Source: Candidatus Woesearchaeota archaeon (lineage in GTDB: Archaea > Nanobdellota > Nanobdellia > SCGC-AAA011-G17 > PNOQ01). From it: a stretch of 64,000 nucleotides of DNA. The notes beneath the pieces were generated by a model. That model saw only the letters and a program-made list of their open reading frames with translations. It was not told the origin of the DNA and searched no databases. Within the stretch, counting starts at the first letter, position 1; each line of letters begins with the position of its first letter. Made by a program: the position numbers and the translations under genes. Positions 963-15,901 of the stretch are shown one piece after another. Location: assembly GCA_043812195.1 (NCBI GenBank), contig JBDRML010000016.1:32001-96000 (forward strand), in the 5' to 3' direction.

Positions 963-2117
963 ATGAATATTTGTTTGATAAACCCTTCTTTCTTTCCAGT
1001 TAGAGGGGGAGGAGAACAATTAACATATGACGTTGCAAAGGAATTATCAAATTCAAACAAAGTAGTAATCGCAACAGAACAGTTACCAAACACAAAACCT
1101 ATAGAAATAATAAACAACATAAAGGTATACAGAGCAAAAACTTCAAAAATTCCATTCTTAAGATTATTTTTAAATCAAATATATTTCTACAAAATGTTGC
1201 TAAAAATAATCGATAAAGAAAAAATAAATTTGCTTCATATGTTTCACCTTTTCAATTTGGGAGGTGCGGCAGTTTTAGCCAAAAGAAAGAAAAAATTAAA
1301 ACTAATAACTAGTCTAATTGGATGGGACACATATGATCCAATAAAACCTGTTCCAAAATACGCATTTCCATACATGGCATGGGTAATGAACAACTCAGAC
1401 ACTGTATTAACTAGCTCTAAACACTTATTAAAATCTGCAAGAAAACAAGGTGCAAGAAAACAAATTCCAATAATCTCACATGGAACAAATTTGCATAGAA
1501 TAAAGCAAAAAACAATAGATATAAAAAAAAAATATAACATAAAAAAAGATGAAAAAATTGTTTTCTCTCTTCAAAGACTTCACAAAAGAAAAGGTTTAGA
1601 ATATTTAATTCTTGCAGCCAAAAAAGTTCTGGCAAACAAACCAAATATAAAATTCATAATCGGAGGAAAGGGTCCTGAACTAAATAATTTAAAAGTACTT
1701 GCCAAAAGACTAAGACTAGAAAAAAATATTATATTCGCTGGATTCATACCAGACGAAGAATTAAACAATTACTATCAAACTGCAGATCTCTTCTCATTGC
1801 CAAGTCTTTACGAAGGGTTTGGAATAGTTTATGTGGATGCTCTAATCAATGGATTACCAATAGCAACAACAAAATGTGGCGGTTCAGAAGAAATGGTAAA
1901 CAAATCAAATGGAATTTTAGTAAAACCAAAAAGTAGCGAACAATTAGCCAATGCAATCTTAGAAGTATTAAACAAAACATGGAATAAAAAAGAAATCAAG
2001 AAAAATGCTGAAAAATATAAATGGGAAAATATAATAAAAAAATACGAAGAAATTTATGAAAAACTATCTTTTTCTGTATCTAATAACCCAAAACAACACA
2101 TTCTTAATCCAAGCTAA
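963..2117 (+). CDS. Glycosyltransferase family 4 (GT-B)
   Basis: GGGE N-terminal motif, KGLEYLI, and EGFGIVYVDAL; ATG at 963 directly follows the gmd stop. Confidence 0.9.
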   Translation: MNICLINPSFFPVRGGGEQLTYDVAKELSNSNKVVIATEQLPNTKPIEIINNIKVYRAKTSKIPFLRLFLNQIYFYKMLLKIIDKEKINLLHMFHLFNLGGAAVLAKRKKKLKLITSLIGWDTYDPIKPVPKYAFPYMAWVMNNSDTVLTSSKHLLKSARKQGARKQIPIISHGTNLHRIKQKTIDIKKKYNIKKDEKIVFSLQRLHKRKGLEYLILAAKKVLANKPNIKFIIGGKGPELNNLKVLAKRLRLEKNIIFAGFIPDEELNNYYQTADLFSLPSLYEGFGIVYVDALINGLPIATTKCGGSEEMVNKSNGILVKPKSSEQLANAILEVLNKTWNKKEIKKNAEKYKWENIIKKYEEIYEKLSFSVSNNPKQHILNPS

Positions 2118-2711
2118 ATTAAACAAAACTGCAAACAACAACAACAAAACCACTAATTGATTAAAAATAATCAAAACAGATATAACTAAATTCTGTATTG
2201 CAACATCTACTTCAATTGGTTTCTGATCTTTTGGTTTTGAATCTTCAACATTAAATTTAACTTTAGTAAATAATGCACTATGTCTCCAAAACAAGGTGCT
2301 TATAATAGCCAAAATAGATAAAACCATAACAAAAAGAGAGGGTTCATTAATATAAATCACAACAGAAATTGCTATAAGAATTATCAATTCCCTTATTCTA
2401 TCTAATATTCCATCAAGCCATGCTCCAAATTGAGAAGCTTTTCCTTTAAGTCTAGCAAGTTCTCCATCAACCAAATCAAAAACCCAAGAAAACCAATAAA
2501 CTATTCCTGCAAATACATAATTCCCATTTAATAAGAGAAAAGCAGAAAAGACACCAATTAAAAAACTGAGAACCGTCACAAAATTTGGAGAAATAAATCT
2601 AAGCTTATAAAAAAGCACAGTAAAGGGATATGAAAACAACCTACTAAACTCGAACAAATAAGATTCCTTAAAAGATTTTCTTCTCCTTCTCCATAAAGAT
2701 TGCATTCTCAA
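2064..2711 (-). CDS. CDP-alcohol phosphatidyltransferase family protein
   Basis: Complete signature DLVDGELAR...GAWLDGILD, SPNxVT motif, multiple TM segments. Confidence 0.9.
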   Translation of the reverse strand: MRMQSLWRRRRKSFKESYLFEFSRLFSYPFTVLFYKLRFISPNFVTVLSFLIGVFSAFLLLNGNYVFAGIVYWFSWVFDLVDGELARLKGKASQFGAWLDGILDRIRELIILIAISVVIYINEPSLFVMVLSILAIISTLFWRHSALFTKVKFNVEDSKPKDQKPIEVDVAIQNLVISVLIIFNQLVVLLLLFAVLFNLAWIKNVLFWVIRYRKR

Positions 2712-2801
2712 AAACTACAAAACCTCGTATATAAAGTTTATTAAAATTAATTTAGAATCCACAAAGCTTAAGAATAGTATAACATTCCAAATCATGTTTA
2801 A

Positions 2802-3563
2802 ATGAATTTAAAAGAGAGATACAATAAAATAAAAGAGCACTCATTCAGCAGAGCCAGAAAATACAAAGGATTTGACAAAATCTACGATACATTTATGAGA
2901 GTTATAACATTTATACCAGTATTCATTTTATCCTTTTTTCCTATAACAGGTAACGCTGTATCAATATTAGCCATTTTAGGTAATTTTCTAGCATTCTATT
3001 TATTTATAACTCAACAATTTATTTTAGGTATAATAATCATTTTTGCTACTGAAGTATTAGATTACATGGATGGAACTGTAGCAAGGATAAGAAATGAAAA
3101 AAATCCAATAATGGGTAGCTTTTTAGGAAGGTTATATCATGTAGTTAGTTTTGGGATAATTTTTATCGGTATTTGTATAGGAATTGGTATTTGGGAGATG
3201 GGTATAGTATTAGGGATTAGTTATTATATCAGAGTATATATGATAGAATTAAGAAATAGTCTATTAAACATAGTCCACAAAGATATTCAAAAACCAGAAG
3301 AAACAAAAAAACAAAACAAATTATATAAATTTATCAAAAATCTTATAGTATTTCCAATAAGTGATGGAAAGGTTATTATTCTAATAATTTTAATTAGCAT
3401 AATATTGGGCATTTTAAAAGAAGTTATGATATTTTATGCAATTCATTCAGTAATTTTAGCTTTAGCAGTATTTGTAATAACATATAGACAATTAATAGCA
3501 AAAAAGAAGGAACCTACAGAAAATAGTAACATAAACATTAAAAAAGAAGAAGAGGTAAATTAA
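2802..3563 (+). CDS. CDP-alcohol phosphatidyltransferase family protein (variant motif)
   Basis: DYMDGTVAR motif with degenerate distal aspartates (GSFLGRLYH); TM-rich. Confidence 0.8.
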   Translation: MNLKERYNKIKEHSFSRARKYKGFDKIYDTFMRVITFIPVFILSFFPITGNAVSILAILGNFLAFYLFITQQFILGIIIIFATEVLDYMDGTVARIRNEKNPIMGSFLGRLYHVVSFGIIFIGICIGIGIWEMGIVLGISYYIRVYMIELRNSLLNIVHKDIQKPEETKKQNKLYKFIKNLIVFPISDGKVIILIILISIILGILKEVMIFYAIHSVILALAVFVITYRQLIAKKKEPTENSNINIKKEEEVN

Positions 3564-3598
3564 AAAATCGTTTCAAAAAACAAAGGAGGAAATAAAAA

Positions 3599-4033
3599 AT
3601 GAAAATAGTTTATTCATATTATGTATTAGATTTGGTACATAAAGGACACATTCTTCAAATGAGAAATTCTAAAAACTTTGCAGGTGAAGATGGAAAACTA
3701 GTTGTTGGGATTTTAACAGATGAAGCCGCAATGGAAAAAAAACCAAAACCAATTATGCCATTTGACGAGAGGGTAATTCTCGCTAAAGCCATAAAATATG
3801 CAGATGTAGTTATTCCGCAAGAAACTTATTCTCCAATAGATAATATAAGAAGAATAAAACCAGATATTTTAATGGAATCAGTAAGCCACAATGAAAAAGA
3901 TATAAAAGAAGCGATTGAAGTAATGAAAGAATGGGGTGGTAAAGTCATAATAACTCCAAATTACCCACAACAATCTTCAACAAATTTAAAAAAAGAATTA
4001 AGAAGAACTAACGCTAAAAGGGAGGAAATATAA
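3599..4033 (+). CDS. Cytidylyltransferase (HxGH family), resembling the PEP-mutase-associated domain
   Basis: DLVHKGH, GILTDE, VIPQET, KPD, EWGGK and SST motifs. Confidence 0.85.
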   Translation: MKIVYSYYVLDLVHKGHILQMRNSKNFAGEDGKLVVGILTDEAAMEKKPKPIMPFDERVILAKAIKYADVVIPQETYSPIDNIRRIKPDILMESVSHNEKDIKEAIEVMKEWGGKVIITPNYPQQSSTNLKKELRRTNAKREEI

Positions 4034-4968
4034 TGAAAAAAACAAATTTGGCAATCGGAGCGTTAGTAATACTCTTAGGAATAGTATTAATTTTTCCAAT
4101 TATATCTGGAGAAGAAAAATTACAGGAAGAGATAACAGGAGACATTGTTAAAAATACAAATGAAATAAAAGTCTTAAAGATGGGTTTAATCCCTGCAGAT
4201 GACGCAGCAGAAATGCTAAGAAATTATGAACCTATTAAAGAATACCTATCTGAAAAATTAGGAATTCCAGTAGAAATTCAAGTAACTTCAGATTATACTG
4301 CTGCAATTGAAGCAATGAGAGCAAAACATATTGATATGGCATGGTTTGGACCATTCTCATACATAATAGCAGCCAATGTTGCAGACGCAGAAGCAATAGT
4401 TAATGGAGTTAAAGAAGATGGAAAATCTACCTACAAATCAATAATAGTAGTTAATGCAAATAGTGGAATAAAAACATTAGAAGATTTAAAAGGCAAAAGT
4501 TTCGCTTTTGTAGATCCAGCATCAACGTCAGGAAATTTAATACCTAGAAAGATGTTAATTGAAAATGGAATAGATCCAGACAACGATTTTAGCACTCAAT
4601 ATTATGCTGGCACACACAATGCAGTACAATATGCAATAGCAAACGGAAAAGTAGATGCAGGAGCAGATAGTGATAATTCATATTACAGAATGTTAGAAGC
4701 TGGAGAAATAGATTCTGAAGTTAATATAATCATTTACGAATCTGAACCAATTCCGGGATCTCCAATAGCAGTTAGGGGAGGCTTACCTAAAGATTTCAAA
4801 AAAGCCATCCAAGATGCTTTAATAGCAATGGAAGAACAGACAATCCATAAAGTAGATGGTTGGGGTGGAATTATAAGGTATCAAGCAGTCACAGATAGTG
4901 ATTACGACATTATTAGAGATACTGCAAAAATATTAGGAATGGATGTAACAAACCCAGACGCTACTTAA
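4033..4968 (+). CDS. phnD: Phosphonate/phosphite/phosphate ABC transporter substrate-binding protein
   Basis: N-terminal anchor; DYTAAIEAM, GPFSY, DPASTSG and AGTH motifs. Confidence 0.9.
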   Translation: MKKTNLAIGALVILLGIVLIFPIISGEEKLQEEITGDIVKNTNEIKVLKMGLIPADDAAEMLRNYEPIKEYLSEKLGIPVEIQVTSDYTAAIEAMRAKHIDMAWFGPFSYIIAANVADAEAIVNGVKEDGKSTYKSIIVVNANSGIKTLEDLKGKSFAFVDPASTSGNLIPRKMLIENGIDPDNDFSTQYYAGTHNAVQYAIANGKVDAGADSDNSYYRMLEAGEIDSEVNIIIYESEPIPGSPIAVRGGLPKDFKKAIQDALIAMEEQTIHKVDGWGGIIRYQAVTDSDYDIIRDTAKILGMDVTNPDAT

Positions 4969-5021
4969 ATAAATTATTTTTTATTTTTTTATAATTCTAA
5001 AATAAGAAAAATAAAATAAAA

Positions 5022-5768
5022 ATGATAAAAATAGAAAACCTAACCCATACTTACAAAAATAGAAATGAAGAAGCAATTAAATGTATTAATTTGCACATCA
5101 AAAAAGGAGAAAGTATAGTTATAATAGGATCAAGTGGATCTGGAAAATCAACATTACTAAGATGTATCAATAAATTAATAGAACCTAATTCTGGAAAAAT
5201 ATTAATAGAAGATGAAGATATTATAAATTGTTCAGCTAAAAAAGCAGAAAAAATACGTGGAAAAATTGCAATGATTTTCCAGAATTTCAACCTTATAGAA
5301 AGAGAGAGTGTTCTTAAAAACGTTTTAAATGGAAGATTAAAATATAATAGCACAATCAAAACTTTATTCGGAAAGTTTTCTAAAGAAGATTATAATATTG
5401 TAAAAGAAAACATCAAAATAGTTGGATTGGAAGGATACGAAGAAGAAAGAATCAATAATTTAAGTGGCGGACAAAAACAAAGAGTCGCTATAGCAAGAGC
5501 ATTGTCACAAAAACCAGATATCATTCTAGCTGATGAACCAGTATCAAACTTAGATCCAATGCTAATGACAGAAATAATGGATTTACTTAAAAGTATTTGT
5601 GATAAAAAAAATATAACACTTATAACAAGTTTGCATTTTCTTGAATTTGCAAAAAGATATGGTACAAGAATAATAGGAATGCGAAACGGGCAGATTGTTT
5701 TTAATGGGACCCCAGAAGAACTTACAGAAAGAGACATAGTAGAAATATACCAAAAAACTCAAAACTAA
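5022..5768 (+). CDS. phnC: Phosphonate ABC transporter ATP-binding protein
   Basis: Walker A GSSGSGKST, LSGGQKQRVAIARAL, LADEPVSNLDP and NVLNGRL. Confidence 0.92.
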   Translation: MIKIENLTHTYKNRNEEAIKCINLHIKKGESIVIIGSSGSGKSTLLRCINKLIEPNSGKILIEDEDIINCSAKKAEKIRGKIAMIFQNFNLIERESVLKNVLNGRLKYNSTIKTLFGKFSKEDYNIVKENIKIVGLEGYEEERINNLSGGQKQRVAIARALSQKPDIILADEPVSNLDPMLMTEIMDLLKSICDKKNITLITSLHFLEFAKRYGTRIIGMRNGQIVFNGTPEELTERDIVEIYQKTQN

Positions 5769-5769
5769 C

Positions 5770-6570
5770 TTGCCAAAAATGACTAAACTAAAACTCCCAA
5801 AAAATAAGTATAAAGGAATTATTATAGGTATATTAATAGTCATAATCTATTACTGGGCCATTACTGGAACTGAAACAAGCCCTATTAATTTTGTCAAAGG
5901 TCTTCCAAATATGGCAGATTTCATCAGTAGAATGTTCCCACCAGACATAACTAACTTAGAAAGATTTCTATTAAAAGCTGTAGAAACTCTACAAATGGCT
6001 ATAGTAGGATCAACATTAGGAGCATTAATAGCACTACCATTATCATTTTTGGCTGCAAGAAATATAATGCACAATAAATTAATATATCATACAACAAGAA
6101 CTATATTTGATGCTTTAAGAGGAATTAACGAAATAGTATGGGGTCTAATTTTTGTTTCAATGGTAGGACTAGGACCATTTCCAGGAGTATTAGCATTAAC
6201 AGCGCACGTTACAGGTGCGTTAGGAAGATATTTTTCAGAAGCAATAGAAACAGTAGATCCAGAATCAATAAGAGCTATTGTCTCAACAGGAGCAAGCAAA
6301 ATTCAAGTAATAGCTAGAGGAATTTTCCCACAAGTTAAACCACTATTTGCCAATTATTCCTTGTACTATTTAGAAAATAATTTCAGAGCTGCAACAGTCT
6401 TAGGATTGGTAGGAGCAGGAGGAATAGGTATGGAGCTCATCACAAGTATGAGACTATTCAAAAACCAAGAAGTTCTAACTATTCTAATAATAATGGTATT
6501 AATGGTTATAATGATAGATCGATTAAGTGCATTCGTTAGAAAAAAGATAATTAAAATTGAAAATGTTTAA
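5770..6570 (+). CDS. phnE: Phosphonate ABC transporter permease
   Basis: ETLQMAIVG, GLGPFPGVLAL and NFRAATVLGLVGAGGIG; start is TTG 5770 or ATG 5779. Confidence 0.92.
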   Translation: MPKMTKLKLPKNKYKGIIIGILIVIIYYWAITGTETSPINFVKGLPNMADFISRMFPPDITNLERFLLKAVETLQMAIVGSTLGALIALPLSFLAARNIMHNKLIYHTTRTIFDALRGINEIVWGLIFVSMVGLGPFPGVLALTAHVTGALGRYFSEAIETVDPESIRAIVSTGASKIQVIARGIFPQVKPLFANYSLYYLENNFRAATVLGLVGAGGIGMELITSMRLFKNQEVLTILIIMVLMVIMIDRLSAFVRKKIIKIENV

Positions 6571-6588
6571 CAAAAATTAAATAAGACT

Positions 6589-6816
6589 TTATTGCATAAT
6601 TGCTTCTTCACTCAATTTACCTTCTTTTAAAGCTTGTACCCTTTCACAAACCTCAAAAATTCTTGACAATCCAATATTCATTGCTTTAACCAAAGTAGGA
6701 TTAAATTTAGAAAGAACAGAATCTTCATAATACCTTGATTTAATATCAGCTATTCTTTATCTAAAAAACATTCTCGCACCATTTACATTACATGCATAGC
6801 CCACTTATAATCTCAT
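6589..6816 (-). pseudogene. Possible degraded ORF remnant
   Basis: ATG abuts the upstream stop; reading has two internal TAA then a protein-like run of about 55 aa (RIADIKSRYYED...EEAIMQ*). Confidence 0.3.
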
Positions 6817-7478
6817 TATGCATCAATCTTTGATACAGCCTTATAACTATTCTTAAATGAATAAATAACCATTAAACTTGTTATCAACAAATAACCTAAA
6901 TTTAATACCATCATTAAACCAAGTATTTTACCAATAATTATCATAGGCAAATAACCTTCAAAACTTAAAGCAATTCTTATTACTTCGTTCTGTTTTCCAC
7001 CGACTTTCTTACTTTTTTTGTTTGTAGTTTTTAGTAGATTATCTTTGTATCTAAAAGAAATCTGACTAAGCAAATAAAATATTGCAGATGTTACACCAAC
7101 CACTAAATAACCACTTCCAATTCCAACACCTATTAAAAGCGTTATTAAAGATACAATATGAAACATGTGGTCTAAATATGCATATGTCTTATTGTTTAAG
7201 TTATTTGTTGAGTGTGCTATTGCACCATCTACGCAATCTAAAATATGGCCCAAAATTAAGAACAACATTCCAATCCAAAACTCATTAGATAAAAAGAAAA
7301 TTATTGCAGGTATTCTACTTAAGATTGCTAACCAAGTGATTGTATCTGGCTTTATCTTTAACCATTTAAATGAATAATAGAATGGAATTGAAAGTATTAT
7401 TAAACAACAATATACTATCTTCCATATTAAAGGATTATTCTTAAACTTCCTTTTTATGGTTACTTCGTATAGTTCCAA
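6816..7478 (-). CDS. CDP-alcohol phosphatidyltransferase family protein
   Basis: KPDTIT and DCVDGAIAH...YLDHMFH motifs; TM-rich. Confidence 0.8.
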   Translation of the reverse strand: MELYEVTIKRKFKNNPLIWKIVYCCLIILSIPFYYSFKWLKIKPDTITWLAILSRIPAIIFFLSNEFWIGMLFLILGHILDCVDGAIAHSTNNLNNKTYAYLDHMFHIVSLITLLIGVGIGSGYLVVGVTSAIFYLLSQISFRYKDNLLKTTNKKSKKVGGKQNEVIRIALSFEGYLPMIIIGKILGLMMVLNLGYLLITSLMVIYSFKNSYKAVSKIDA

Positions 7479-9384
7479 GTATCACATCTCCTGATTTTTT
7501 TGAAGAATCAAATAAATTTTCCCTTATGGATAAATTCCTCTTCTTTATGCTTTCTAATATTCTTAAAAAATGTTCAATACTAACATTTCTAATATCAACT
7601 TCTAATAACTCGTGTTTCCCCAAACATTTTTCTGAAAATCCTTCCGTATCTTTATATTTTATTATTATTATTGGTCTATCTACGTATATTGCTTCTAACA
7701 CTATTGATGAAAAAAATGTTATTACTAAATCATATTTTTTTAGAAAATCATATTTATCACCCACATTTTTATCTTCATAAACTTTATTAGAAATTTTATT
7801 ATAGATTTCTTTATTTTCTTCAGATGGATGCATCTTTATATCTAACTCAAAATCTCCCTTCAATTTTTCACTTAATTCTTTTATATAACTCTCATACTCT
7901 TTGATTGTTGATGTTCCTTCTTCCACAAAAGCATTTGTGCATAACAAAACTTTCTTCTTTGGTTTCTTTACAAAACTATATCCCACCAAATGTAAGTTTT
8001 CTTTCTTCGCCCCATTCTTTAATAACATATCTTTTAATAAATGATTATAACACAATACATGGCAATTATCTGGGTATGTATATTCTACATCGGGAATAAG
8101 GAAACCATGTGTCAATCTAAAACAAGGTATATTCATAGACTTACCCGCAATAATCATACACTTTTCAACAAGGTTTCCAAATCCATCTAACAAAACACAT
8201 TTACAATCGTACTTTTTTATTATATCCAAACAAATTTTATAATAAATGTTTATTAATCGTATTACTTCTTTTGAATATATAAAATCTTCTGGAGGAATCT
8301 TTGTTTTTTTATATTTAATATTATTCGATTGAAAAATAGAGTCAAAATAATTGTATATCATATCCTCCCTATACCTAATTCTTTTACTTGATAACTTATC
8401 GAAATAGATTACTTTTTGTGCATGTCCCAAACTTTTTATGTAATTATAAATATCGCCAACTCTTTCTAGTTCATCACCTTTCTTTCTTATTAATGGCAGT
8501 AAGTATAGTATATCATACTTATTATTATCTTTTATTTTTTTAGACGCAATCAGCTTTGTTATTTGAGAGATATACATTGCTTTTCTATATATATTTCTTT
8601 TTTCACCGTATACCCATTTTGGCATTTCACCAACTAATATTTTCTGTTTAAAAAACAATCCAATGTTATAATCGCCGATTTTATAATTCTCATCTATACT
8701 AAAATTGCCAGATTTTTTATTGATAGATGAACCTTGCATAAGATCTTGCCCCTCCATTATTTTTACTCTTTTTTCTTTTTTCTTTTCAATAATTAAATTC
8801 ATCCATTTTTTTTGGTATTTTATGTTATAATCTTCATAAAATTCAATTACATCAAACCCATTTTCATTAAACATCTCAATAAACTCATCTTTAACAAATC
8901 GCCTTCTAAATCTTTTAGTTACATTTTTATAATCTTCTTTAATAAAATACCCTTCTTCTGATTTTTCATTTATAGTGGTACAAACAAAAATACATCCATT
9001 CGGCATTAATAATGATTTTAATTTGTTTAATATTATTTTTGTTTCATCTTTTGGAAATAAGTGTATAAAAGCATCTAAAATTATTCCATCATATTTTCTA
9101 TCAAATTCCTTTTTTAAGAAATCTATAACTTCTAATTTTGCTTCTGGAACATTCTTTTTAGCAAATTTAATCATCTCTTTTGAACAATCAATACCATAGG
9201 TTTTAAATCCAAAATTATTTAAAATATGTAAATCAAGACCAACGCCGCAACCAATATCTAAAACTTCTGGTTTCTTGAATCTTTTTGCTAATATTTTTTT
9301 AAAGGGTAATAATACTTTTGTTTGATACAAAATATTATTTTTATTTCTTTCATTATATTCTTTAGCAACAGAATCATAGTTCAT
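7441..9384 (-). CDS. Class I SAM methyltransferase fused to a GT-B-like capsule/glycan biosynthesis domain
   Basis: N-terminal VLDIGCGVG and GIDCSKEMI; C-terminal THG, IKMHPSE and SSIVLEA motifs. Confidence 0.7.
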   Translation of the reverse strand: MNYDSVAKEYNERNKNNILYQTKVLLPFKKILAKRFKKPEVLDIGCGVGLDLHILNNFGFKTYGIDCSKEMIKFAKKNVPEAKLEVIDFLKKEFDRKYDGIILDAFIHLFPKDETKIILNKLKSLLMPNGCIFVCTTINEKSEEGYFIKEDYKNVTKRFRRRFVKDEFIEMFNENGFDVIEFYEDYNIKYQKKWMNLIIEKKKEKRVKIMEGQDLMQGSSINKKSGNFSIDENYKIGDYNIGLFFKQKILVGEMPKWVYGEKRNIYRKAMYISQITKLIASKKIKDNNKYDILYLLPLIRKKGDELERVGDIYNYIKSLGHAQKVIYFDKLSSKRIRYREDMIYNYFDSIFQSNNIKYKKTKIPPEDFIYSKEVIRLINIYYKICLDIIKKYDCKCVLLDGFGNLVEKCMIIAGKSMNIPCFRLTHGFLIPDVEYTYPDNCHVLCYNHLLKDMLLKNGAKKENLHLVGYSFVKKPKKKVLLCTNAFVEEGTSTIKEYESYIKELSEKLKGDFELDIKMHPSEENKEIYNKISNKVYEDKNVGDKYDFLKKYDLVITFFSSIVLEAIYVDRPIIIIKYKDTEGFSEKCLGKHELLEVDIRNVSIEHFLRILESIKKRNLSIRENLFDSSKKSGDVILGTIRSNHKKEV

Positions 9385-9718
9385 TTATCTATTTCCTTCC
9401 TAATTTTTATCAATAAATATTCTTATTATTCTTTTTAGGCATACTAAAAATTCTAGCTCTTGCCTTAACATACACAAAAAGATATTTACCCCTCTTTATA
9501 AATTTTATTAAAAAAGAAACCCATAAAACTTAAAAAGACAAATATATTTTAAAATCTAAAAGAAATACTGCAAAAACACAGCATATATTAAAAAGTTAAT
9601 CTATATATTAATTATAATTACTACCTTAAAAACTACTTAGAAAGATAATAGAACCTATCAGTAAAAATAAATTCATTTTTAATAAAATTTATAAGGTATA
9701 AAAAAAACACTTAATTTA

Positions 9719-11212
9719 ATGACTGATTATTCTAAAACTTTGATAAAAGGAACAAGTGTTATTTTCATTGCAACAATAAGCACAAGTCTAATTGGTTATT
9801 TTCTAAAATTATTATTAGCAAAAAACTTAACTATAACGGAATTTGGATTAGTTTATTCAATAATAGCATTATTCGGAGTTTTTCTAATATTGCCTGGAAT
9901 AGGATCAGGCAAAGCATTAGTTAGATTTATAACAGAATACAAGACCAAAAATAAATTAAAAGAAATTAAAACAACCATACTAACAAGTTTCTTAATCAAC
10001 ATGTGTTTATCTCTAACAATAGGCCTTATATTAATTATATTTTCAGAACCAATAGCTCTAAATTATTTACATGATATAACCAAATCATCTTACATAAGAT
10101 TATATGCTATAGCATTTATTCTTACCCCTACAATAAGTATATTTAAATCTATTTTTGCAGGATTCAAAAAAAGTAAATATTATTCAATAATAGACTTATC
10201 AAAAATGTTAACAATCCTAATTTTCGCTTATATCTTCCTAAAATTAAACTTGGGTGTAACAGGGGTATTTTTAGCCTACATTTTAGTATATATTCTACCA
10301 ATAATATTCTATTTCCCATTACTAATAAAAAAAGTATTTCCAACTTTCTTAAAGGTAAAAGCAGGAATCAAATCACAAAAAGCAAAAAGATTAATAAAAT
10401 TTGGGATACCCCTCACAATAGCAAGTACAGCAGGTATGATATTTGGATACATGGACACAGTGATAATCACTTTCTTTAGATCTCTAGAAGAAGTAGCACT
10501 ATACAATGTAGGATTGCCAACTATAAGAATTGTATGGAACTTTGAAAGGGCTCTAACTGTAATACTTTTTCCAATAGCAGTAGAATTATGGCTCCAAAAA
10601 GATAAAACCAGATTCAGAAACGGAATAAAAAATCTCTACAAATACATTTTAATTATAATAATACCATTTACTATGGTCTTATTCATATTTCCTGAATTAA
10701 TCCTCAAAGTATTATTTGGCCAAGCATTTGTGGGGGCTGCTAGTGTAGTGAGAATTCTTGCAATCACATCGCTAATTATAGTTTTAGCAAGAATAAATAT
10801 AGCCATAATAACCAGCATAGGAAAACCAAGCATTATAACTAAAGTAATGGTAATAGGCGCGCTGATAAATATTATAATAAACCTAATTTTAATCCCGATA
10901 ATAGGTATAAATGGTGCTGCGATATCCACAGCAGCCGCCTTTTCATTTATATTGATTTACACACATAATAATCTAAAAAAATTAGCACAAATAAATTTCC
11001 CAGTAGGAAAAATAATCAAAATATTATTAATCAGCACAATTATAACTATTACAGCTTACATTTTAAAAGAAATTATTCAAATAAATATCTATTTAGAATC
11101 TATAATTATAATATTAATAGGAATGATAATCTACACAACTCTGATTTTTGTATTCAAAGTCTTAACTCCAAAAGAAGTTAAAAATCTGCTTAACAAGCTT
11201 AAAAATAAATAA
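9719..11212 (+). CDS. Oligosaccharide flippase (Wzx/MOP family)
   Basis: Many TM segments; EFGLVY, MDTVII and GINGAAIST motifs. Confidence 0.88.
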   Translation: MTDYSKTLIKGTSVIFIATISTSLIGYFLKLLLAKNLTITEFGLVYSIIALFGVFLILPGIGSGKALVRFITEYKTKNKLKEIKTTILTSFLINMCLSLTIGLILIIFSEPIALNYLHDITKSSYIRLYAIAFILTPTISIFKSIFAGFKKSKYYSIIDLSKMLTILIFAYIFLKLNLGVTGVFLAYILVYILPIIFYFPLLIKKVFPTFLKVKAGIKSQKAKRLIKFGIPLTIASTAGMIFGYMDTVIITFFRSLEEVALYNVGLPTIRIVWNFERALTVILFPIAVELWLQKDKTRFRNGIKNLYKYILIIIIPFTMVLFIFPELILKVLFGQAFVGAASVVRILAITSLIIVLARINIAIITSIGKPSIITKVMVIGALINIIINLILIPIIGINGAAISTAAAFSFILIYTHNNLKKLAQINFPVGKIIKILLISTIITITAYILKEIIQINIYLESIIIILIGMIIYTTLIFVFKVLTPKEVKNLLNKLKNK

Positions 11213-11238
11213 TAAATCTGACAAAACTAAAAAGATAA

Positions 11239-12012
11239 TTAATATTCAACTTTGAAAGTATTTTCTAAAGCTGTGGGCCCATGAGAAAACACACGAGTCC
11301 CTTCAGCCATTGTTTCGAGTATTATTCTATCCATAAATTCTCTTTGTGAAGGTAAGGTTCTACCAGTTTCACCTAATTTAGGTTTATAAAAATAATTACC
11401 ACCATAATAACTAGAATCACTAGAAACCTCATTACTAAATTCAACACCATACAAATGAATTGAAGATGCACCCATGACATGAGCGACTTGTAGAGCCATA
11501 CATGCACTTGTACCCCCAACATTAATCGCCTTTTGATGTCTTCTAGAAACTGGAACAGGATTCTTAGATCCAGCAATATAATGCATTAATAAATGTGGCT
11601 CAGAAGGGCTAGGTAATTGTAAAAAAAGATTATTGATATGTTCATCTCTGCTAGAAACCCATCTTAATCCTAATTCAGTAGTTTTAACTAAACTAGGTTT
11701 CTCATCCATATATTTTTCATATTCATTAATAAATTTATTCCTAATCTTTTCATCAGGATAAAATTTGGGAGAGTAAATAGCTGAATGTGGTTTAATTATA
11801 CATTGCACATCCTCATCCAAATCCAAAAACCAACTTCTAGTATGTGCAGCTTGGTCTCCAGAAAGAAAAATATCTCTTCCATGAAGTAAATAACCCGCAC
11901 CATTAACACCAATAACAATGTCTTCCCCTCTATTAAAAATCATAACAGAAGGAGCAGAACCTAAAACAGCAATTTCAGTACCATAATAAATATTTCTTAC
12001 TTTATCAAGCAT
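11239..12012 (-). CDS. DUF115/Maf-like putative nonulosonic acid transferase
   Basis: VLGSAPS, IGVNG and TSACMALQVAHVMGASSIHLYGVE pattern; located next to neuA. Confidence 0.55.
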   Translation of the reverse strand: MLDKVRNIYYGTEIAVLGSAPSVMIFNRGEDIVIGVNGAGYLLHGRDIFLSGDQAAHTRSWFLDLDEDVQCIIKPHSAIYSPKFYPDEKIRNKFINEYEKYMDEKPSLVKTTELGLRWVSSRDEHINNLFLQLPSPSEPHLLMHYIAGSKNPVPVSRRHQKAINVGGTSACMALQVAHVMGASSIHLYGVEFSNEVSSDSSYYGGNYFYKPKLGETGRTLPSQREFMDRIILETMAEGTRVFSHGPTALENTFKVEY

Positions 12013-13039: not shown

Positions 13040-13137
13040 AAAAAAAGAATTTAACGACTACTTATAAAGTTTACTAATATTAAAAAAATTAGAAATTATT
13101 CCACAAGCTTTTTAAACAAATATCATTTCTCAAACTC

Positions 13138-15900: not shown

Positions 15901-15901
15901 T

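What the first reader, a model, noticed from the sequence alone, without database searches (positions are those of the whole stretch)
2064..7478. Possible phosphonate import-activate-transfer module in a glycan locus
Seen: a cytidylyltransferase (3599-4033) overlaps the phnD start, followed by phnC-phnE, with three CDP-alcohol phosphotransferase genes around them. No C-P lyase, phosphonatase or PEP mutase lies in the window. Known: PhnDCE import phosphonates/phosphite; from memory, this cytidylyltransferase's motifs (GILTDE, VIPQET, EWGGK, SST) resemble the domain fused to PEP mutase; CMP-phosphonate activation is used for phosphonolipids and phosphonoglycans. Inference: the cell scavenges a ready-made phosphonate (or polyol phosphate) and uses it intact to decorate lipids or S-layer glycan, by analogy with the lic phosphocholine pathway, rather than as a P source.
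Basis: partly seen in the sequence, partly recalled or inferred. Interest (0 to 1): 0.7.

Follow-up and report, generated by a model that had tools for sequence, protein, structure and literature searches.

The report
Import-and-activate organophosphorus cassette in archaeal glycan locus
A tiny symbiotic-type archaeon carries a transporter gene set welded to an activating enzyme and transfer enzymes, a cassette shared by many uncultured microbes that most likely lets them take up a ready-made phosphorus compound (probably a phosphonate) and build it intact into their cell surface.

Summary
At 3599-6570 a 144-aa PF01467 cytidylyltransferase (CyT) overlaps phnD by one base and is followed by phnC and phnE, which score above NCBIfam cut-offs. 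Three CDP-alcohol phosphotransferase paralogs flank them.

CyT is not TagD: 52.6 bits against a cut-off of 165.4. Its nearest solved relative by sequence and by fold is the Fom1 2-hydroxyethylphosphonate cytidylyltransferase domain. On a tree it forms its own clade.

The linkage recurs:
- In 54 of 79 related loci from many phyla, CyT is followed directly by an organophosphate:phosphate-antiporter-type MFS; in 5 by PhnDCE.
- Of 19 assessable metagenomic relatives of this PhnD, 14 have a CyT immediately upstream and 4 a Ppm-type nucleotidyltransferase.
- 49 of 51 PepM-lacking genomes have a transporter beside CyT. 8 of the 10 loci without one lie in PepM-encoding genomes.

The window's genome (90% complete) lacks PepM, Ppd, PhnJ, PhnX, PtxD-type dehydrogenases, PstS, Pit and CarS. 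PhnD lacks the phosphite-capping tyrosine.

Verdict: a real import-activate-transfer module. The cargo is probably a C2 phosphonate, with glycerol phosphate the main rival.

The parts
2064..2711 (-). CDP-alcohol phosphotransferase paralog 1 (215 aa), the only one with the full canonical motif DxxDGxxARx8GxxxDxxxD. Likely the transferase that uses the CMP/CDP-activated product.
   Evidence: PF01066 65.2 bits. Best NCBIfam matches are archaetidylinositol-phosphate synthase (74.3 bits) and IPCT/DIPPS (71.6 bits), both far below their cut-offs. Motif read from the translation. It belongs to the same blastp cluster as the CDP-OH genes in 20 other CyT loci. The Woesearchaeota locus L032 has a 64%-identical copy at the same position.
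2802..3563 (+). Divergent CDP-alcohol phosphotransferase paralog 2 (253 aa). The third and fourth motif aspartates are replaced by G and H.
   Evidence: PF01066 22.5 bits (cut-off 22). NF040950 41 bits, E 1.8e-10. Motif read.
3599..4033 (+). Stand-alone HxGH cytidylyltransferase-fold enzyme (CyT, 144 aa). A member of a tightly conserved subfamily that is encoded next to organophosphate importers.
   Evidence: PF01467 46.2 bits. TagD model 52.6 bits (cut-off 165.4) and RfaE-II model 66 bits (cut-off 181.5). PDB phmmer: 5x3d Fom1 CyTase E 2e-16, TagD 1coz 2.7e-8. AF2 model pLDDT 92.4. Foldseek top hit 5x3d, E 2.3e-13, rmsd 1.2 A. Sits in its own clade of 32 rows with SH-aLRT 97.
4033..4968 (+). 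PhnD-type substrate-binding protein (311 aa, N-terminal membrane anchor) with an open, uncapped ligand pocket.
   Evidence: TIGR03431 273.2 bits (cut-off 261.1). Nearest PDB chains are PtxB 5o2j (1e-51) and Te_PtxB 5jvb (1e-47). Ser243 aligns with the capping Tyr (Te_PtxB Y208, Ps_PtxB Y203) and with E. coli PhnD D205. Only one PhnD is found in the genome.
5022..5768 (+). PhnC, the ABC ATPase.
   Evidence: TIGR02315 317.7 bits (cut-off 266.1).
5770..6570 (+). PhnE, the ABC permease.
   Evidence: TIGR01097 298.5 bits (cut-off 216.7).
6816..7478 (-). Divergent CDP-alcohol phosphotransferase paralog 3 (220 aa). The motif Arg is replaced by His and the last Asp by His.
   Evidence: PF01066 35.2 bits. 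Motif read. 31.7% identical to the CDP-OH gene inside the phosphonate cassette of relative G025.
7441..9384 (-). Methyltransferase fused to a TagF/polysialyltransferase-like C-terminal domain (647 aa). A possible polymerase or transferase partner; its membership of the module is inferred only.
   Evidence: Methyltransf_23 51.5 bits and Glyphos_transf 29 bits. The C-terminal part is 34% identical to the Epimerase_2/polyST-like protein of G025.
9719..11212 (+). Wzx-type flippase. It marks the locus as one for lipid-linked glycan assembly (context).
   Evidence: Polysacc_synt 95 bits. 67.6% identical to the Wzx next to the PepM cassette in G025.
11239..13039 (-). Variable slot between Wzx and the PseF-like gene. 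Here it holds orf257 and an APH-family kinase. In relative G025 the same slot holds Ppd, CyT-PepM, sulfatase-family protein, AEP transaminase and more (context).

Best explanation
Genes 3599-6570 form one operon in a DPANN (Woesearchaeota-type) surface-glycan island. The proposed steps are:

1. The PhnDCE ABC importer takes up a small organophosphorus compound with a free phosphonate or phosphate head.
2. The translationally coupled cytidylyltransferase joins that compound to CMP, using CTP.
3. The flanking CDP-alcohol phosphotransferases (paralog 1 has the canonical motif) transfer the activated phosphoryl or phosphonyl group, releasing CMP. The acceptor would be a lipid or a lipid-linked glycan that the neighbouring Wzx flippase then exports.

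I think the cargo is most likely a two-carbon phosphonate made by other organisms: 2-hydroxyethylphosphonate, or else 2-aminoethylphosphonate. The cell keeps it intact rather than mining it for phosphorus. This would be a phosphonate salvage branch of the known phosphonyl-tailoring pathway, working like the lic phosphocholine pathway.

What is shown: the gene content, the operon layout, the family assignments, the recurrent linkage, and the failure to find biosynthetic and catabolic genes. What is inferred: the direction of flow, the identity of the cargo, CTP as the nucleotide, and the acceptor.

My odds are about 0.8 for the import-activate-transfer logic as such and about 0.5-0.55 for a phosphonate cargo.
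For: COUPLING OF IMPORTER AND ENZYME
- CyT and phnD overlap by one base.
- In 54 of 79 related loci from at least a dozen phyla, the 58-70%-identical CyT is followed at a median of +21 bp by an MFS.
- That MFS belongs to the organophosphate:Pi antiporter family: PgtP, UhpC and GlpT models score 248-289 bits, all below their cut-offs.
- In 5 loci PhnDCE takes that place. Two unrelated importers at the same position argue that the importer feeds the enzyme.
- Reverse direction: 26 close metagenomic relatives of this PhnD were found. Of the 19 with at least 1 kb upstream, 14 have a PF01467 CyT directly upstream, 4 have only a PF12804/PF00483 nucleotidyltransferase there, and 1 has that enzyme only downstream.
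- In a sample of 151 genomes of the phylum, PhnD occurs in 3, the window's own included. The 78%-identical one (G147) again lies in a CyT-NTPt-PhnD...PhnC-PhnE-NTPt-CDP-OH array.

PHOSPHONATE LINK
- The nearest solved relative is the HEP-CMP-bound Fom1 CyTase.
- 13 of the 56 long proteins scanned from the top 150 representative hits are CyT-PepM fusions and 1 is a CyT-Fe-ADH fusion.
- At conserved columns the family shares 13 states with PepM-fused domains against TagD, and 6 the other way.
- Ppd or PepM lie inside 6-7 of the 79 loci. L036 reads PepM-NTPt fusion, Ppd, Fe-ADH, NTPt, NUDIX, MFS, NTPt, CyT, LicD.
- PepM-Ppd-Fe-ADH (HEP-type) clusters occur in three further CyT genomes.
- The second nucleotidyltransferase of the cassette is 33-44% identical to the domain fused to PepM in G029. 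So both enzyme types that Rice et al. 2019 found fused to Ppm (PMC6697681, passages read) flank these importers.
- An OPA-family MFS, AepP, is a proven 2AEP importer (PMC8316502, passages read).

MAKE OR TAKE
- Of 66 assessable genomes, 49 of the 51 without PepM have a transporter beside CyT.
- Of the 15 with PepM, 7 have a transporter and 8 do not (Fisher p = 4e-5; related genomes are not independent).

LOSS OF BIOSYNTHESIS HERE
- The Woesearchaeota relative G025 has the same CyT-PhnDCE cassette (PhnD 77% identical).
- In the syntenic slot between Wzx (67.6% identical) and PseF (69% identical) it carries a Ppd, CyT-PepM, sulfatase-family and AEP-transaminase cassette.
- The window has none of these, and neither does the rest of its genome.

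NOT A PHOSPHORUS-NUTRITION SYSTEM
- No PhnJ, PhnX or PtxD-type dehydrogenase was found.
- PstS is missing from 148 of the 151 genomes of the phylum sample, so lacking it is normal there and does not call for PhnDCE.
- PhnD lacks the phosphite cap.

THE TRANSFERASES NEED A NON-LIPID DONOR
- No CDP-archaeol synthase (PF01864) was found, although the genome has four CDP-OH transferases.
Against: - The tree does not place CyT inside the PepM-fused clade. TagD-like, PepM-fused and window-type clades form an unresolved three-way split (supports 88, 83, 86). It is a quick tree on 139 columns.
- In 18 of the 79 loci CyT follows TagF-like Glyphos_transf genes and an ABC ATPase, which looks like a teichoic-acid locus. 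None of the 18 genomes searched for this has a TagD equivalog, so there CyT may simply supply CDP-glycerol.
- By residue numbering, Arg219 and Ser243 of PhnD may match the Arg223/Thr247 pair that binds the hydroxyls of glycerol phosphate in GpxB (PMC12718374). I could not obtain that alignment.
- PhnD lacks the E177/D205 acid pair with which E. coli PhnD holds the amine of 2AEP. This weighs against 2AEP in particular.
- 7 genomes have both PepM and the transporter, G025 among them, so import is not strictly a replacement for synthesis.
- The 8 'PepM but no transporter' loci are all of one Smithella/Syntrophaceae type. They amount to one or two independent events.
- The genome is 90% complete, so the absences are not proven.
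- The family replaces the GDDW motif, conserved in both TagD and PepM-fused domains, with ES-SH. Its chemistry may therefore differ from both.
Confidence: 0.52

Rival explanations
1. Same import-activate-transfer logic, but the cargo is a phosphate monoester. The leading candidate is glycerol phosphate (G1P or G3P); phosphoethanolamine or phosphocholine are less likely. CyT would then be a non-orthologous TagD analogue that makes CDP-glycerol. The CDP-alcohol phosphotransferases here, and the TagF-like or LicD enzymes in other lineages, would build a teichoic-acid-like glycerophosphate decoration or polymer.
For: - 18 of the 79 loci carry Glyphos_transf (TagF/TarF-like) genes, often three in a row after an ABC ATPase and directly before CyT.
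- 0 of the 18 such genomes searched has a TagD equivalog, and 0 of 151 genomes of the phylum sample has one. CyT is therefore the only visible supplier of a CDP-alcohol.
- The MFS partner scores 248 bits on the GlpT model and 289 on the PgtP subfamily model.
- A PhnD-family binding protein, GpxB, binds G1P and G3P through Arg223 and Thr247 (PMC12718374). All six CyT-linked PhnDs conserve an Arg (R219 here) and have Ser or Ala at the cap position. The +4 offset of the phmmer match to 9lf9 maps R223 to R219 and T247 to S243.
- CDP-glycerol-using members of the CDP-alcohol phosphotransferase family are known from Archaeoglobus and Aquifex (recalled, not read here).
- Another first-stage reader of this same stretch called it a teichoic-acid-like module (e1-944947).
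Against: - CyT fails the TagD model (52.6 bits against 165.4) and lies outside the TagD clade.
- It is closer in sequence and fold to the HEP enzyme.
- Free-living bacteria make G3P themselves, so a G3P activator tied to an importer in 54 of 79 loci is hard to explain.
- This reading explains neither the physical linkage to PepM, Ppd and Fe-ADH nor the make-or-take pattern.
- The R219/R223 equivalence rests on numbering, not on an alignment.
Confidence: 0.3
2. PhnDCE is simply this cell's phosphorus-nutrition importer, for phosphate, phosphite or methylphosphonate as proposed for picocyanobacterial PhnD1. Its position beside the cytidylyltransferase has no functional meaning.
For: - The genome shows no PstS-type binding protein and no Pit/PHO4 transporter.
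- The nearest solved relatives of PhnD are phosphite and phosphate binders.
- Picocyanobacterial PhnD1 in genomes without phosphonate catabolism was interpreted as a constitutive Pi transporter (PMC10284923, abstract seen in the listing).
Against: - 148 of the 151 genomes of the phylum sample lack PstS and 148 lack PhnD. The lineage does not depend on either.
- This PhnD subfamily has a nucleotidyltransferase gene in its cassette in 19 of 19 assessable metagenomic loci.
- PhnDCE is interchangeable with an OPA-type MFS at the same position.
- The stop and start codons overlap.
- The capping Tyr needed for tight phosphite binding is Ser here.
- No PtxD-family dehydrogenase was found.
Confidence: 0.08
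3. The small enzyme acts on a sugar phosphate or a cofactor, as HldC/RfaE domain II, FAD synthase or PPAT-like enzymes do. It serves the neighbouring nonulosonic-acid or heptose glycan pathway and is unrelated to the transporter.
For: - The best NCBIfam score is to RfaE domain II (66 bits).
- HldC 5xf2 is the second structural neighbour.
- The locus is rich in sugar-nucleotide enzymes.
Against: - 66 bits is far below the cut-off of 181.5.
- The RfaE/PfkB-fused sequences split from everything else with SH-aLRT 98.
- No heptose kinase or isomerase lies nearby.
- The conserved partner across phyla is an importer, not a sugar pathway.
Confidence: 0.05

Closest known systems
Fom1 N-terminal cytidylyltransferase domain (Streptomyces wedmorensis fosfomycin pathway; PDB 5x3d), which makes CMP-2-hydroxyethylphosphonate
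   Same: Same HxGH Rossmann fold. It is the best sequence match (E 2e-16) and the best fold match (rmsd 1.2 A over 126 columns, 30% identity). It shares the GxLTD, VxPQxT, EWGG and SST motifs, and the Arg-to-Tyr/Asn change in the RTxGISTT motif.
   Different: The window enzyme stands alone and is not fused to PEP mutase. It sits in a separate clade. It replaces GDDW with ES-SH and carries an AGxD insert. It is encoded beside an importer in a genome where no PepM was found.
Phosphonyl tailoring (Pnt) pathway: Ppm-Ppd-(AEP transaminase)-PntC cytidylyltransferase-transferase (Rice et al. 2019, PMC6697681)
   Same: Nucleotidyl activation of a phosphonate, followed by transfer to cell-surface lipids or glycans. 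The same two nucleotidyltransferase families, PF01467 and PF12804, recur in the cassette.
   Different: Here the C-P bond is not made in the cell. An importer stands where Ppm and Ppd would be. The word 'transporter' and words beginning 'scaveng' do not occur in the main text of that paper.
lic phosphocholine pathway (LicB importer, LicA kinase, LicC cytidylyltransferase, LicD transferase) of Streptococcus and Haemophilus (recalled)
   Same: Same logic: take a head group from the environment, activate it with CTP, and transfer it to surface glycans. LicD-family genes sit in 14 of the 79 related loci.
   Different: No kinase step is needed, because the cargo already carries phosphorus. The importer is ABC-type or OPA-MFS, not LicB. 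The activating enzyme has a different fold (HxGH, not LicC). In the window the transferases are CDP-alcohol phosphotransferases.
TagD/TarD plus TagF wall teichoic acid module of Bacillota
   Same: A small HxGH cytidylyltransferase encoded with polymer-forming phosphotransferases and an ABC ATPase. 18 related loci look like this.
   Different: The enzyme fails the TagD equivalog model and falls outside the TagD clade. It is tied to an importer. In some genomes it is linked to PepM, Ppd and Fe-ADH.
PhnT-family binding proteins with solved ligands: PtxB and Pm_PhnD (phosphite), E. coli PhnD (2AEP), GpxB (G1P/G3P)
   Same: Same fold and the same phosphorus-head ligands (STS motif, His195, Tyr134), conserved in alignment A3. 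Highest similarity is to PtxB.
   Different: The specificity-determining cap differs. The window has Ser243 where PtxB has Tyr, E. coli PhnD has Asp and GpxB has Thr. It has Asn215 where E. coli PhnD has Glu177. An Arg (R219) is conserved only among the CyT-linked PhnDs.
AepP, an OPA-family MFS importer of 2-aminoethylphosphonate (Murphy et al. 2021, PMC8316502)
   Same: It shows that GlpT-like MFS proteins can import a phosphonate. The MFS beside CyT in 54 loci belongs to the same OPA family.
   Different: AepP is encoded with catabolic genes (phnWAY or phnWX). The MFS here is encoded with an activating enzyme. I did not compare the two sequences.

Membership tests
TagD / glycerol-3-phosphate cytidylyltransferase (NCBIfam TIGR01518) | Score at or above the curated equivalog cut-off (165.4 bits) | tested here: not met
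   52.6 bits.
TagD / glycerol-3-phosphate cytidylyltransferase (NCBIfam TIGR01518) | Groups with annotated TagD sequences on a tree | tested here: not met
   Four PGAP-annotated plasmid tagD genes form their own clade (SH-aLRT 99). The window lies in a different clade (97) (quick tree).
TagD / glycerol-3-phosphate cytidylyltransferase (NCBIfam TIGR01518) | Conserved GDDW and RTxGISTT motifs (as seen in the four TagD rows used here) | tested here: not met
   ESVSH stands in place of GDDW. Asn121 (family consensus Tyr) stands in place of the Arg. The HxGH motif is present.
Ppm-associated PF01467 phosphonate cytidylyltransferases (Fom1 CyTase type) | Closest solved structure and sequence is the Fom1 CyTase | tested here: met
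   phmmer 63.5 bits, E 2e-16. Foldseek rank 1, E 2.3e-13.
Ppm-associated PF01467 phosphonate cytidylyltransferases (Fom1 CyTase type) | Fusion to, or adjacency with, PEP mutase | tested here: not met
   Stand-alone 144-aa protein. No PepM was found in the genome. PepM or Ppd lie near family members in 6-7 of the 79 other loci.
Ppm-associated PF01467 phosphonate cytidylyltransferases (Fom1 CyTase type) | Membership of the clade that holds the PepM-fused domains | tested here: not met
   All 16 PepM-fused rows and the Fe-ADH-fused row fall in a 40-row clade (support 83) that excludes the window.
Ppm-associated PF01467 phosphonate cytidylyltransferases (Fom1 CyTase type) | CTP-dependent activation of a phosphonate | not testable with these tools
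   Needs an enzyme assay.
PhnCDE phosphonate ABC transporter (TIGR03431, TIGR02315, TIGR01097) | All three subunits score above the equivalog cut-offs | tested here: met
   273.2 against 261.1; 317.7 against 266.1; 298.5 against 216.7.
PhnCDE phosphonate ABC transporter (TIGR03431, TIGR02315, TIGR01097) | Linkage to C-P lyase or another C-P cleavage pathway | tested here: not met
   No PhnJ and no PhnX in the genome.
PhnCDE phosphonate ABC transporter (TIGR03431, TIGR02315, TIGR01097) | Asp/Glu cap that binds the amine of 2AEP (E. coli PhnD D205 and E177) | tested here: not met
   Ser243 and Asn215 at the aligned positions (residue roles from PMC5700983).
PtxB / phosphite-binding proteins | Capping tyrosine (Te_PtxB Y208, Ps_PtxB Y203) and a partner PtxD dehydrogenase | tested here: not met
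   Ser243 aligns with the Tyr. No 2-Hacid_dh_C family protein in the genome.
GpxB glycerol-1/3-phosphate-binding proteins | Arg223/Thr247 pair that binds the glycerol hydroxyls | tested here: inconclusive
   R219 and S243 match only through the +4 numbering offset of the phmmer match to 9lf9. No residue-level alignment could be obtained.
CDP-alcohol phosphatidyltransferase (PF01066) | Signature DxxDGxxARx8GxxxDxxxD | tested here: met
   Complete in paralog 1 (2064-2711). Incomplete in paralogs 2 and 3: D3 to G and D4 to H in paralog 2; R to H and D4 to H in paralog 3. Read.
CDP-alcohol phosphatidyltransferase (PF01066) | A CDP-archaeol or CDP-diacylglycerol donor is available (the classical lipid head-group role) | tested here: not met
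   No CarS-like PF01864 in the genome, while all four archaeal control genomes match over the cut-off.
lic phosphocholine pathway | LicB-type importer, LicA kinase, LicC-fold cytidylyltransferase and LicD transferase | tested here: not met
   No match to the LicD family, and none to the PF12804 or PF00483 nucleotidyltransferase families that LicC belongs to, among the window ORFs scanned. An APH-family kinase lies 5 kb away at 12005-13039. The resemblance is one of logic only.

The most novel reading that the evidence does not exclude
A widespread, undescribed phosphonate salvage pathway in uncultured bacteria and archaea. These include Cloacimonadota, Aminicenantes, Neomarinimicrobiota, Thermoplasmata, Patescibacteria and DPANN.

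- Cells that cannot make C-P bonds would import 2-hydroxyethylphosphonate (or a close relative) through a dedicated OPA-type MFS or PhnDCE.
- A dedicated cytidylyltransferase clade would convert it to the CMP conjugate.
- CDP-alcohol phosphotransferases, LicD-like enzymes or TagF-like enzymes would then attach it or even polymerise it.

Because HEP carries a free hydroxyl, TagF-like enzymes could in principle build phosphonate-linked, teichoic-acid-like chains. Such chains would resist phosphatases and phosphodiesterases.

If so, part of the environmental 'phnD' signal reports surface decoration rather than phosphorus scavenging, and ultra-small symbionts would clothe themselves in phosphonates made by the community.
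Probability: 0.35. Interest if true: 0.85.

Novelty: new variant of a known kind. Interest (0 to 1): 0.68.

Why it matters
PhnCDE genes in genomes without C-P lyase or phosphonatase are a recurring puzzle. A paper on Cloacimonadota notes exactly this, together with a 'fom1' annotation, and leaves it unexplained (PMC12590816). For picocyanobacteria the puzzle was settled by calling the system a phosphate importer (PMC10284923, abstract as shown in the listing).

The conserved cassette found here offers a third, testable answer: import in order to activate and incorporate. It could have four consequences.
- It would extend phosphonate surface tailoring to organisms that lack PEP mutase.
- It would change how phnD counts in metagenomes are read.
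- It would define a new, compact cytidylyltransferase clade with a predictable assay.
- It would show how genome-reduced DPANN and CPR cells obtain envelope building blocks. Their cassettes are 75-80% identical at the protein level across the two domains.

If the cargo turns out to be glycerol phosphate, the finding is still a new non-orthologous TagD analogue with a dedicated importer. That is of more modest interest.

Tried and rejected
- The search for related loci with the 17-sequence alignment A1 failed because no stretch was conserved enough. A 6-sequence alignment (A2) worked.
- One script was not run because the tree programs could not be copied. I sent it again.
- I tried to map the GpxB ligand residues (R223, T247) onto PhnD. 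The PDB search prints only the five best alignments, and 9lf9 was never among them, either with the window PhnD or with the L045 PhnD. Only a numbering argument remains.
- I tried to find real TagD genes among relatives as tree references. 0 of 151 genomes of the phylum sample reach the cut-off. I used four PGAP-annotated plasmid tagD genes instead.
- I asked whether the B12-binding radical SAM genes near CyT in L013, L104 and G025 are Fom3-like. NCBIfam gives only sub-threshold matches to many class-B rSAM families, among them the PhpK and Sden_1168 P-methyltransferase families. The question stays open.
- The conserved unknown neighbours u344, u351 and u141 match no Pfam or NCBIfam family.
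- PtxD-dependent phosphite use is rejected: no 2-Hacid_dh_C protein and no Tyr cap.
- A classical archaeal lipid head-group role for the CDP-OH paralogs is rejected as the sole role: no CarS was found.
- Literature searches turned up no description of a prokaryotic import-plus-CMP-activation route for phosphonates. The nearest item is a diatom paper on 2-AEP uptake into lipids (PMC9765203, abstract as shown in the search listing only). These four searches cover the held library only.
- A word search of the scan's earlier findings returned nothing.

Full report
**What is in the sequence.**
The window is contig C16:32001-96000 of a 938-kb assembly in 45 contigs, estimated 90.4% complete. It is archaeal: the window holds PCNA, eRF1, class I LysRS and an S-layer protein. 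GC content is about 30%. Earlier notes of this scan call the organism a Woesearchaeota-type DPANN archaeon. That fits: the closest named locus I found is labelled Woesearchaeota (L032).

The region 1-25,000 is a surface-glycan island. It contains GDP-mannose dehydratase, a GT4 glycosyltransferase, a Wzx flippase, a PseF-like cytidylyltransferase, NeuB, a UDP-GlcNAc 2-epimerase and DegT-type aminotransferases.

Inside the island lie the genes of the finding:
- 2064-2711(-): a CDP-alcohol phosphotransferase
- 2802-3563(+): a second CDP-alcohol phosphotransferase
- 3599-4033(+): a 144-aa PF01467 enzyme (CyT)
- 4033-4968: PhnD
- 5022-5768: PhnC
- 5770-6570: PhnE
- 6816-7478(-): a third CDP-alcohol phosphotransferase

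All three Phn proteins exceed their NCBIfam equivalog cut-offs. The CyT stop codon and the phnD start overlap as TAATG, and both genes have GGAGG ribosome-binding sites.

Only paralog 1 of the three transferases keeps the full DxxDGxxARx8GxxxDxxxD signature. Paralogs 2 and 3 have His or Gly in place of the last aspartates (read).

**What the small enzyme is.**
It is not a TagD and not an RfaE domain II. It scores 52.6 bits on the TagD model (cut-off 165.4) and 66 bits on the RfaE-II model (cut-off 181.5).

Against all PDB sequences the best hit is 5x3d, the cytidylyltransferase domain of Fom1, at E 2e-16. TagD 1coz scores 2.7e-8. An AlphaFold model built on a 17-sequence alignment has mean pLDDT 92.4. 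Its best Foldseek match is again 5x3d, the HEP-CMP-bound form: E 2.3e-13, rmsd 1.2 A, TM-score 0.89 on the target. HldC (1.9e-10), TarD (7e-9) and TagD (7.8e-8) follow.

A search of 1.84 billion representative proteins gave 3583 hits at E<=1e-3, 212 at E<=1e-10 and 16 at E<=1e-30. I scanned the 56 longest of the top 150 with Pfam:
- 13 are CyT-PEP mutase fusions
- 1 is a CyT-Fe-alcohol dehydrogenase fusion
- 3 are PfkB (HldE-like) fusions
- 1 is a radical-SAM fusion
- 1 is a LicD fusion
- 4 carry DUF2061

I then built a tree of 137 domain sequences. 274 domain hits were reduced to the 209 covering at least 80% of the profile, and then to 137 by removing rows at least 80% identical to a kept row. 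The references were four PGAP-annotated plasmid tagD genes, two rfaE2 genes and two aepX fusions. It is a quick IQ-TREE run with SH-aLRT support only, on 139 columns.

The tree shows the following:
- The RfaE/PfkB type and the genome's second PF01467 gene split from the rest (support 98).
- The remainder is an unresolved three-way split: a TagD-containing group (88), a group holding all 16 PepM-fused rows and the Fe-ADH fusion (83), and the window's group (86).
- Within the window's group there are starred inner clades of 49 rows (95) and 32 rows (97).

So the enzyme belongs to a third lineage and is not nested among the PepM-fused domains.

At well-conserved columns the family shares 13 states with the PepM-fused type against TagD, and 6 the other way. 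It has 24 states of its own. Among these are ES-SH in place of the GDDW motif that the other two types share, and an AGxD insert.

**The linkage to an importer recurs.**
A scan of one genome per species (GTDB set) found 151 relatives. The best 80 were kept as 79 loci. CyT is 58-70% identical across Cloacimonadota, Smithella/Syntrophaceae, Thermoplasmata, Patescibacteria, Woesearchaeota, Altiarchaeota, Neomarinimicrobiota, Aminicenantes, Planctomycetota, KSB1 and others.

I called ORFs in all loci, clustered them by blastp and annotated cluster representatives:
- In 54 of the 79 loci CyT is followed, at a median distance of 21 bp, by a roughly 425-aa MFS protein.
- The best NCBIfam matches of that MFS are PgtP (289 bits), UhpC (253) and GlpT (248), all below their cut-offs. 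It is therefore an unnamed member of the organophosphate:phosphate antiporter family.
- In 5 loci PhnDCE is present: L013 (Patescibacteria; PhnD 80% identical), L032 (Woesearchaeota; 77%), L045, L060 and L080 (32-35%).

Other recurrent neighbours, by number of loci:

| Neighbour | Loci |
|---|---|
| PF12804/PF00483 nucleotidyltransferase (NTPt) | 29 |
| Long CDP-alcohol phosphotransferase cluster (20 related loci plus the window) | 21 |
| Short CDP-alcohol phosphotransferase cluster | 11 |
| TagF-like Glyphos_transf | 18 |
| LicD | 14 |
| NUDIX | 7 |
| Unknown family u344 | 10 |
| Unknown family u351 | 9 |

The reverse test used PhnD as the query against metagenome contigs. It gave 216 relatives, of which 80 were kept. 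Of these, 26 are close (70-100% identical). I dropped the other 54 as weak partial matches of 31-42% identity over about 110 residues or fewer.

Of the 19 close loci with at least 1 kb upstream of phnD:
- 14 have a PF01467 CyT directly upstream, often two paralogs in tandem;
- 4 have only an NTPt there;
- 1 has NTPt genes only downstream.

In a sample of 151 genomes of the phylum, PhnD occurs in 3, the window's own included. The 78%-identical copy, in G147, lies in an array reading MTase, CyT, NTPt, PhnD, MTase, PhnC, PhnE, NTPt, CDP-OH, polysialyltransferase-like.

The cassette is therefore rare and patchy. It always comes with a nucleotidyltransferase, and it is shared between archaea and CPR bacteria at 75-80% protein identity and 69-74% DNA identity.

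**Why I favour a phosphonate cargo.**
1. The nearest characterised enzyme activates 2-hydroxyethylphosphonate (HEP).
2. Phosphonopyruvate decarboxylase (TIGR03297, 469-492 bits against a cut-off of 312.5) and PEP mutase lie in or next to several of the loci. These are the Smithella-type loci L012, L021, L051, L055 and L056, and the Thermoplasmata locus L036. L036 reads PepM-NTPt fusion, Ppd, Fe-ADH, NTPt, NUDIX, MFS, NTPt, CyT, LicD.
3. In three further CyT-bearing genomes the PepM cluster reads CyT-PepM fusion, Ppd, Fe-ADH. The best match of the Fe-ADH is the phosphonate-associated Fe-ADH model TIGR03405, at 246-271 bits against a cut-off of 423.7. This is the HEP branch. Two Aminicenantes genomes show the same ORF sizes, but I did not annotate them.
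4. The NTPt next to CyT is 33-44% identical to the nucleotidyltransferase domain fused to PepM in G029. Both enzyme families that Rice et al. found fused to Ppm (PF12804 at 33%, PF01467 at 23.6%, both at about 2.9%; PMC6697681, passages read) therefore sit beside these importers.
5. An OPA-family MFS, AepP, is an experimentally shown 2AEP importer (PMC8316502, passages read).
6. There is a make-or-take pattern, set out in the next section.
7. The Woesearchaeota relative G025 has the same CyT-PhnDCE cassette. Between its Wzx (67.6% identical to the window's) and its PseF (69% identical) it also carries Ppd, a 444-aa CyT-PepM fusion, a sulfatase-family protein and an AEP transaminase (TIGR03301, 329.5 bits against a cut-off of 360.8), among others. 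The window's equivalent slot holds only orf257 and an APH-family kinase. tblastn with the G025 proteins finds no Ppd, PepM or sulfatase anywhere in the window's genome, and the HMM searches agree.

**The make-or-take pattern.**
I searched the genomes of 74 of the 79 loci for PepM (TIGR02320). It is above the cut-off in 15, and present but truncated in one more. Among the 66 loci where a transporter could have been seen:

| Genome | Transporter beside CyT | No transporter |
|---|---|---|
| Without PepM (51) | 49 | 2 |
| With PepM (15) | 7 | 8 |

The Fisher p value is 4e-5. The 8 loci with PepM and no transporter are all Smithella-type relatives, so the number of independent events is small.

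**Why it is not a phosphorus-nutrition system.**
- The genome shows no PhnJ, PhnX or 2-Hacid_dh_C (PtxD-family) protein. An imported phosphonate or phosphite could not be mineralised by any known route.
- It also lacks PstS-type proteins and Pit. But 148 of the 151 genomes of the phylum sample lack PstS, and 148 lack PhnD. So this is the normal state of the lineage and does not point to PhnDCE as the phosphate importer.
- The closest solved relatives of PhnD are the phosphite binders Ps_PtxB and Te_PtxB. Bisson et al. show that their capping tyrosine (Y203 and Y208) is needed for tight phosphite binding and blocks larger ligands (PMC5700983, passages read). That tyrosine aligns with Ser243 here, and with Ala in the three more distant CyT-linked PhnDs.
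- The pocket is therefore likely to be larger. It also lacks the Glu177/Asp205 pair with which E. coli PhnD holds the amine of 2AEP; the window has Asn215 and Ser243 at those positions. This is why I rank HEP above 2AEP.

**The main rival.**
In 18 loci CyT follows an ABC ATPase and up to three TagF-like genes, which looks like a teichoic-acid locus. None of the 18 such genomes searched has a TagD equivalog. CyT could therefore be their CDP-glycerol supplier.

A PhnD-family protein, GpxB, binds G1P and G3P through Arg223 and Thr247 (PMC12718374, passages read). The phmmer match of the window PhnD to chain 9lf9 has a constant +4 offset at both ends. That offset puts His199, Ser168-x-Ser170 and Tyr138 of GpxB on conserved His195, Ser164-x-Ser166 and Tyr134. 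It would also put Arg223 and Thr247 on Arg219 and Ser243. Arg219 is conserved in all six CyT-linked PhnDs but not in PtxB or E. coli PhnD.

I could not obtain the alignment itself. The argument fits glycerol phosphate. It fits HEP equally well, since HEP also ends in a hydroxyl.

Two points weigh against glycerol phosphate. Free-living bacteria make G3P themselves, so a dedicated importer tied to the activating enzyme in most loci would be odd. And this reading explains neither the PepM, Ppd and Fe-ADH linkage nor the make-or-take pattern.

**The transferases.**
The genome has four PF01066 genes, three of them in this module. No CDP-archaeol synthase was found, although all four archaeal control genomes match over the cut-off. 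The classical reaction, CDP-archaeol plus a polar alcohol, therefore lacks its donor. A soluble CMP/CDP-activated donor such as the CyT product is the obvious alternative.

The acceptor is unknown. The position in a Wzx-dependent glycan island suggests a lipid-linked glycan, or a lipid taken from a host.

**Comparison with what is known, and novelty.**
The logic is that of the lic phosphocholine pathway, and the chemistry is that of the Pnt phosphonyl-tailoring pathway. The protein families are all known. Three things are new:
- a distinct, strongly conserved cytidylyltransferase clade;
- its fixed coupling to one of two unrelated organophosphorus importers across many phyla of mostly uncultured organisms;
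- its presence mostly in genomes without PEP mutase.

My literature searches found no description of such a route in prokaryotes. A paper on Cloacimonadota notes PhnCDE without degradation genes together with a 'fom1' annotation, and does not connect them (PMC12590816, one passage read). A diatom paper reports 2-AEP uptake into lipids (PMC9765203, abstract as shown in the search listing only).

That agrees with the HEP-type clusters I found independently, but I did not examine that genome.

I class the finding as a new variant of a known kind. It comes with a clear, cheap biochemical test.

Noticed in passing
window 3599-6570; L013:6983-9943; L032:5764-8688; L104:7819-12444: The CyT-PhnDCE cassette is 75-80% identical at the protein level (PhnD) and 69-74% at the DNA level between this archaeon, another DPANN class member and a Patescibacteria (CPR) bacterium. 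Its GC content matches each host. This points to cassette exchange between the two groups of ultra-small organisms across domains.
   Followed up: partly
window 11239-13039 versus L088 (G025:C7) 6460-17101: The slot between Wzx and the PseF-like gene is variable. In the relative it holds Ppd, CyT-PepM, a sulfatase-family protein, AEP transaminase, PAPS reductase, HIT, a CysN-like GTPase, a phosphodiesterase, rSAM-SPASM and a CDP-OH transferase. In the window it holds only orf257 (weak MptE-like match) and an APH-family kinase.
   Followed up: partly
window 3599-4033, residues 28-31 and 93-97: The CyT family replaces the GDDW motif, shared by the TagD and PepM-fused domains compared here, with ES-SH. 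It also carries an AGxD insert. Both features are conserved in 90-100% of 21 family rows. Their meaning for substrate or nucleotide choice is unknown.
   Followed up: no
L014, L033, L065, L080 (three CyT copies in tandem); proteins P0001, P0018, P0047, P0056, P0068: CyT genes occur as tandem paralogs and as two-domain fusions. P0001 joins a PepM-type CyT domain to a window-type CyT domain in one 297-aa protein. This suggests that two different substrates are activated in one pathway.
   Followed up: partly
L008, L012, L015, L021, L042, L051, L055, L056 (Smithella/Syntrophaceae MAGs): A conserved array reads MlaA, u265, u141, CyT, short CDP-OH transferase, SDR, methyltransferase and two KAS III-like genes, with Ppd and CyT-PepM on the opposite strand. 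It looks like an undescribed phosphonolipid gene cluster.
   Followed up: partly
whole genome G000 and the phylum sample: PstS-type phosphate-binding proteins were found in only 3 of 151 genomes of this phylum. The window's genome also lacks Pit. How these cells obtain phosphorus is not evident from known importers.
   Followed up: partly
whole genome G000 (C16 and C25:11790-12236): There are four CDP-alcohol phosphotransferase genes but no CDP-archaeol synthase (CarS) in a 90%-complete genome.
   Followed up: partly
L053:7436-8470 (u344), L084:8770-9825 (u351), L021:3526-3951 (u141): Three protein families without any Pfam or NCBIfam match are conserved next to the CyT-MFS pair, in 10, 9 and 10 loci respectively.
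   Followed up: no
L013:3145-4611, L104:1976-3400, L088:23-1174: B12-binding or class-B-like radical SAM genes lie near the cassette in three DPANN/CPR loci, and P0099 is a radical-SAM-CyT fusion. This recalls Fom3, which methylates CMP-HEP, but no specific family match was obtained.
   Followed up: partly
The genome search phylum sample: Several genomes of the phylum have PF01467 matches inside open frames of 433-483 aa, the size of CyT-PepM fusions. Two of the five sampled members of the window's own family are among them (G176, G188). I did not confirm the PepM domain in them.
   Followed up: no
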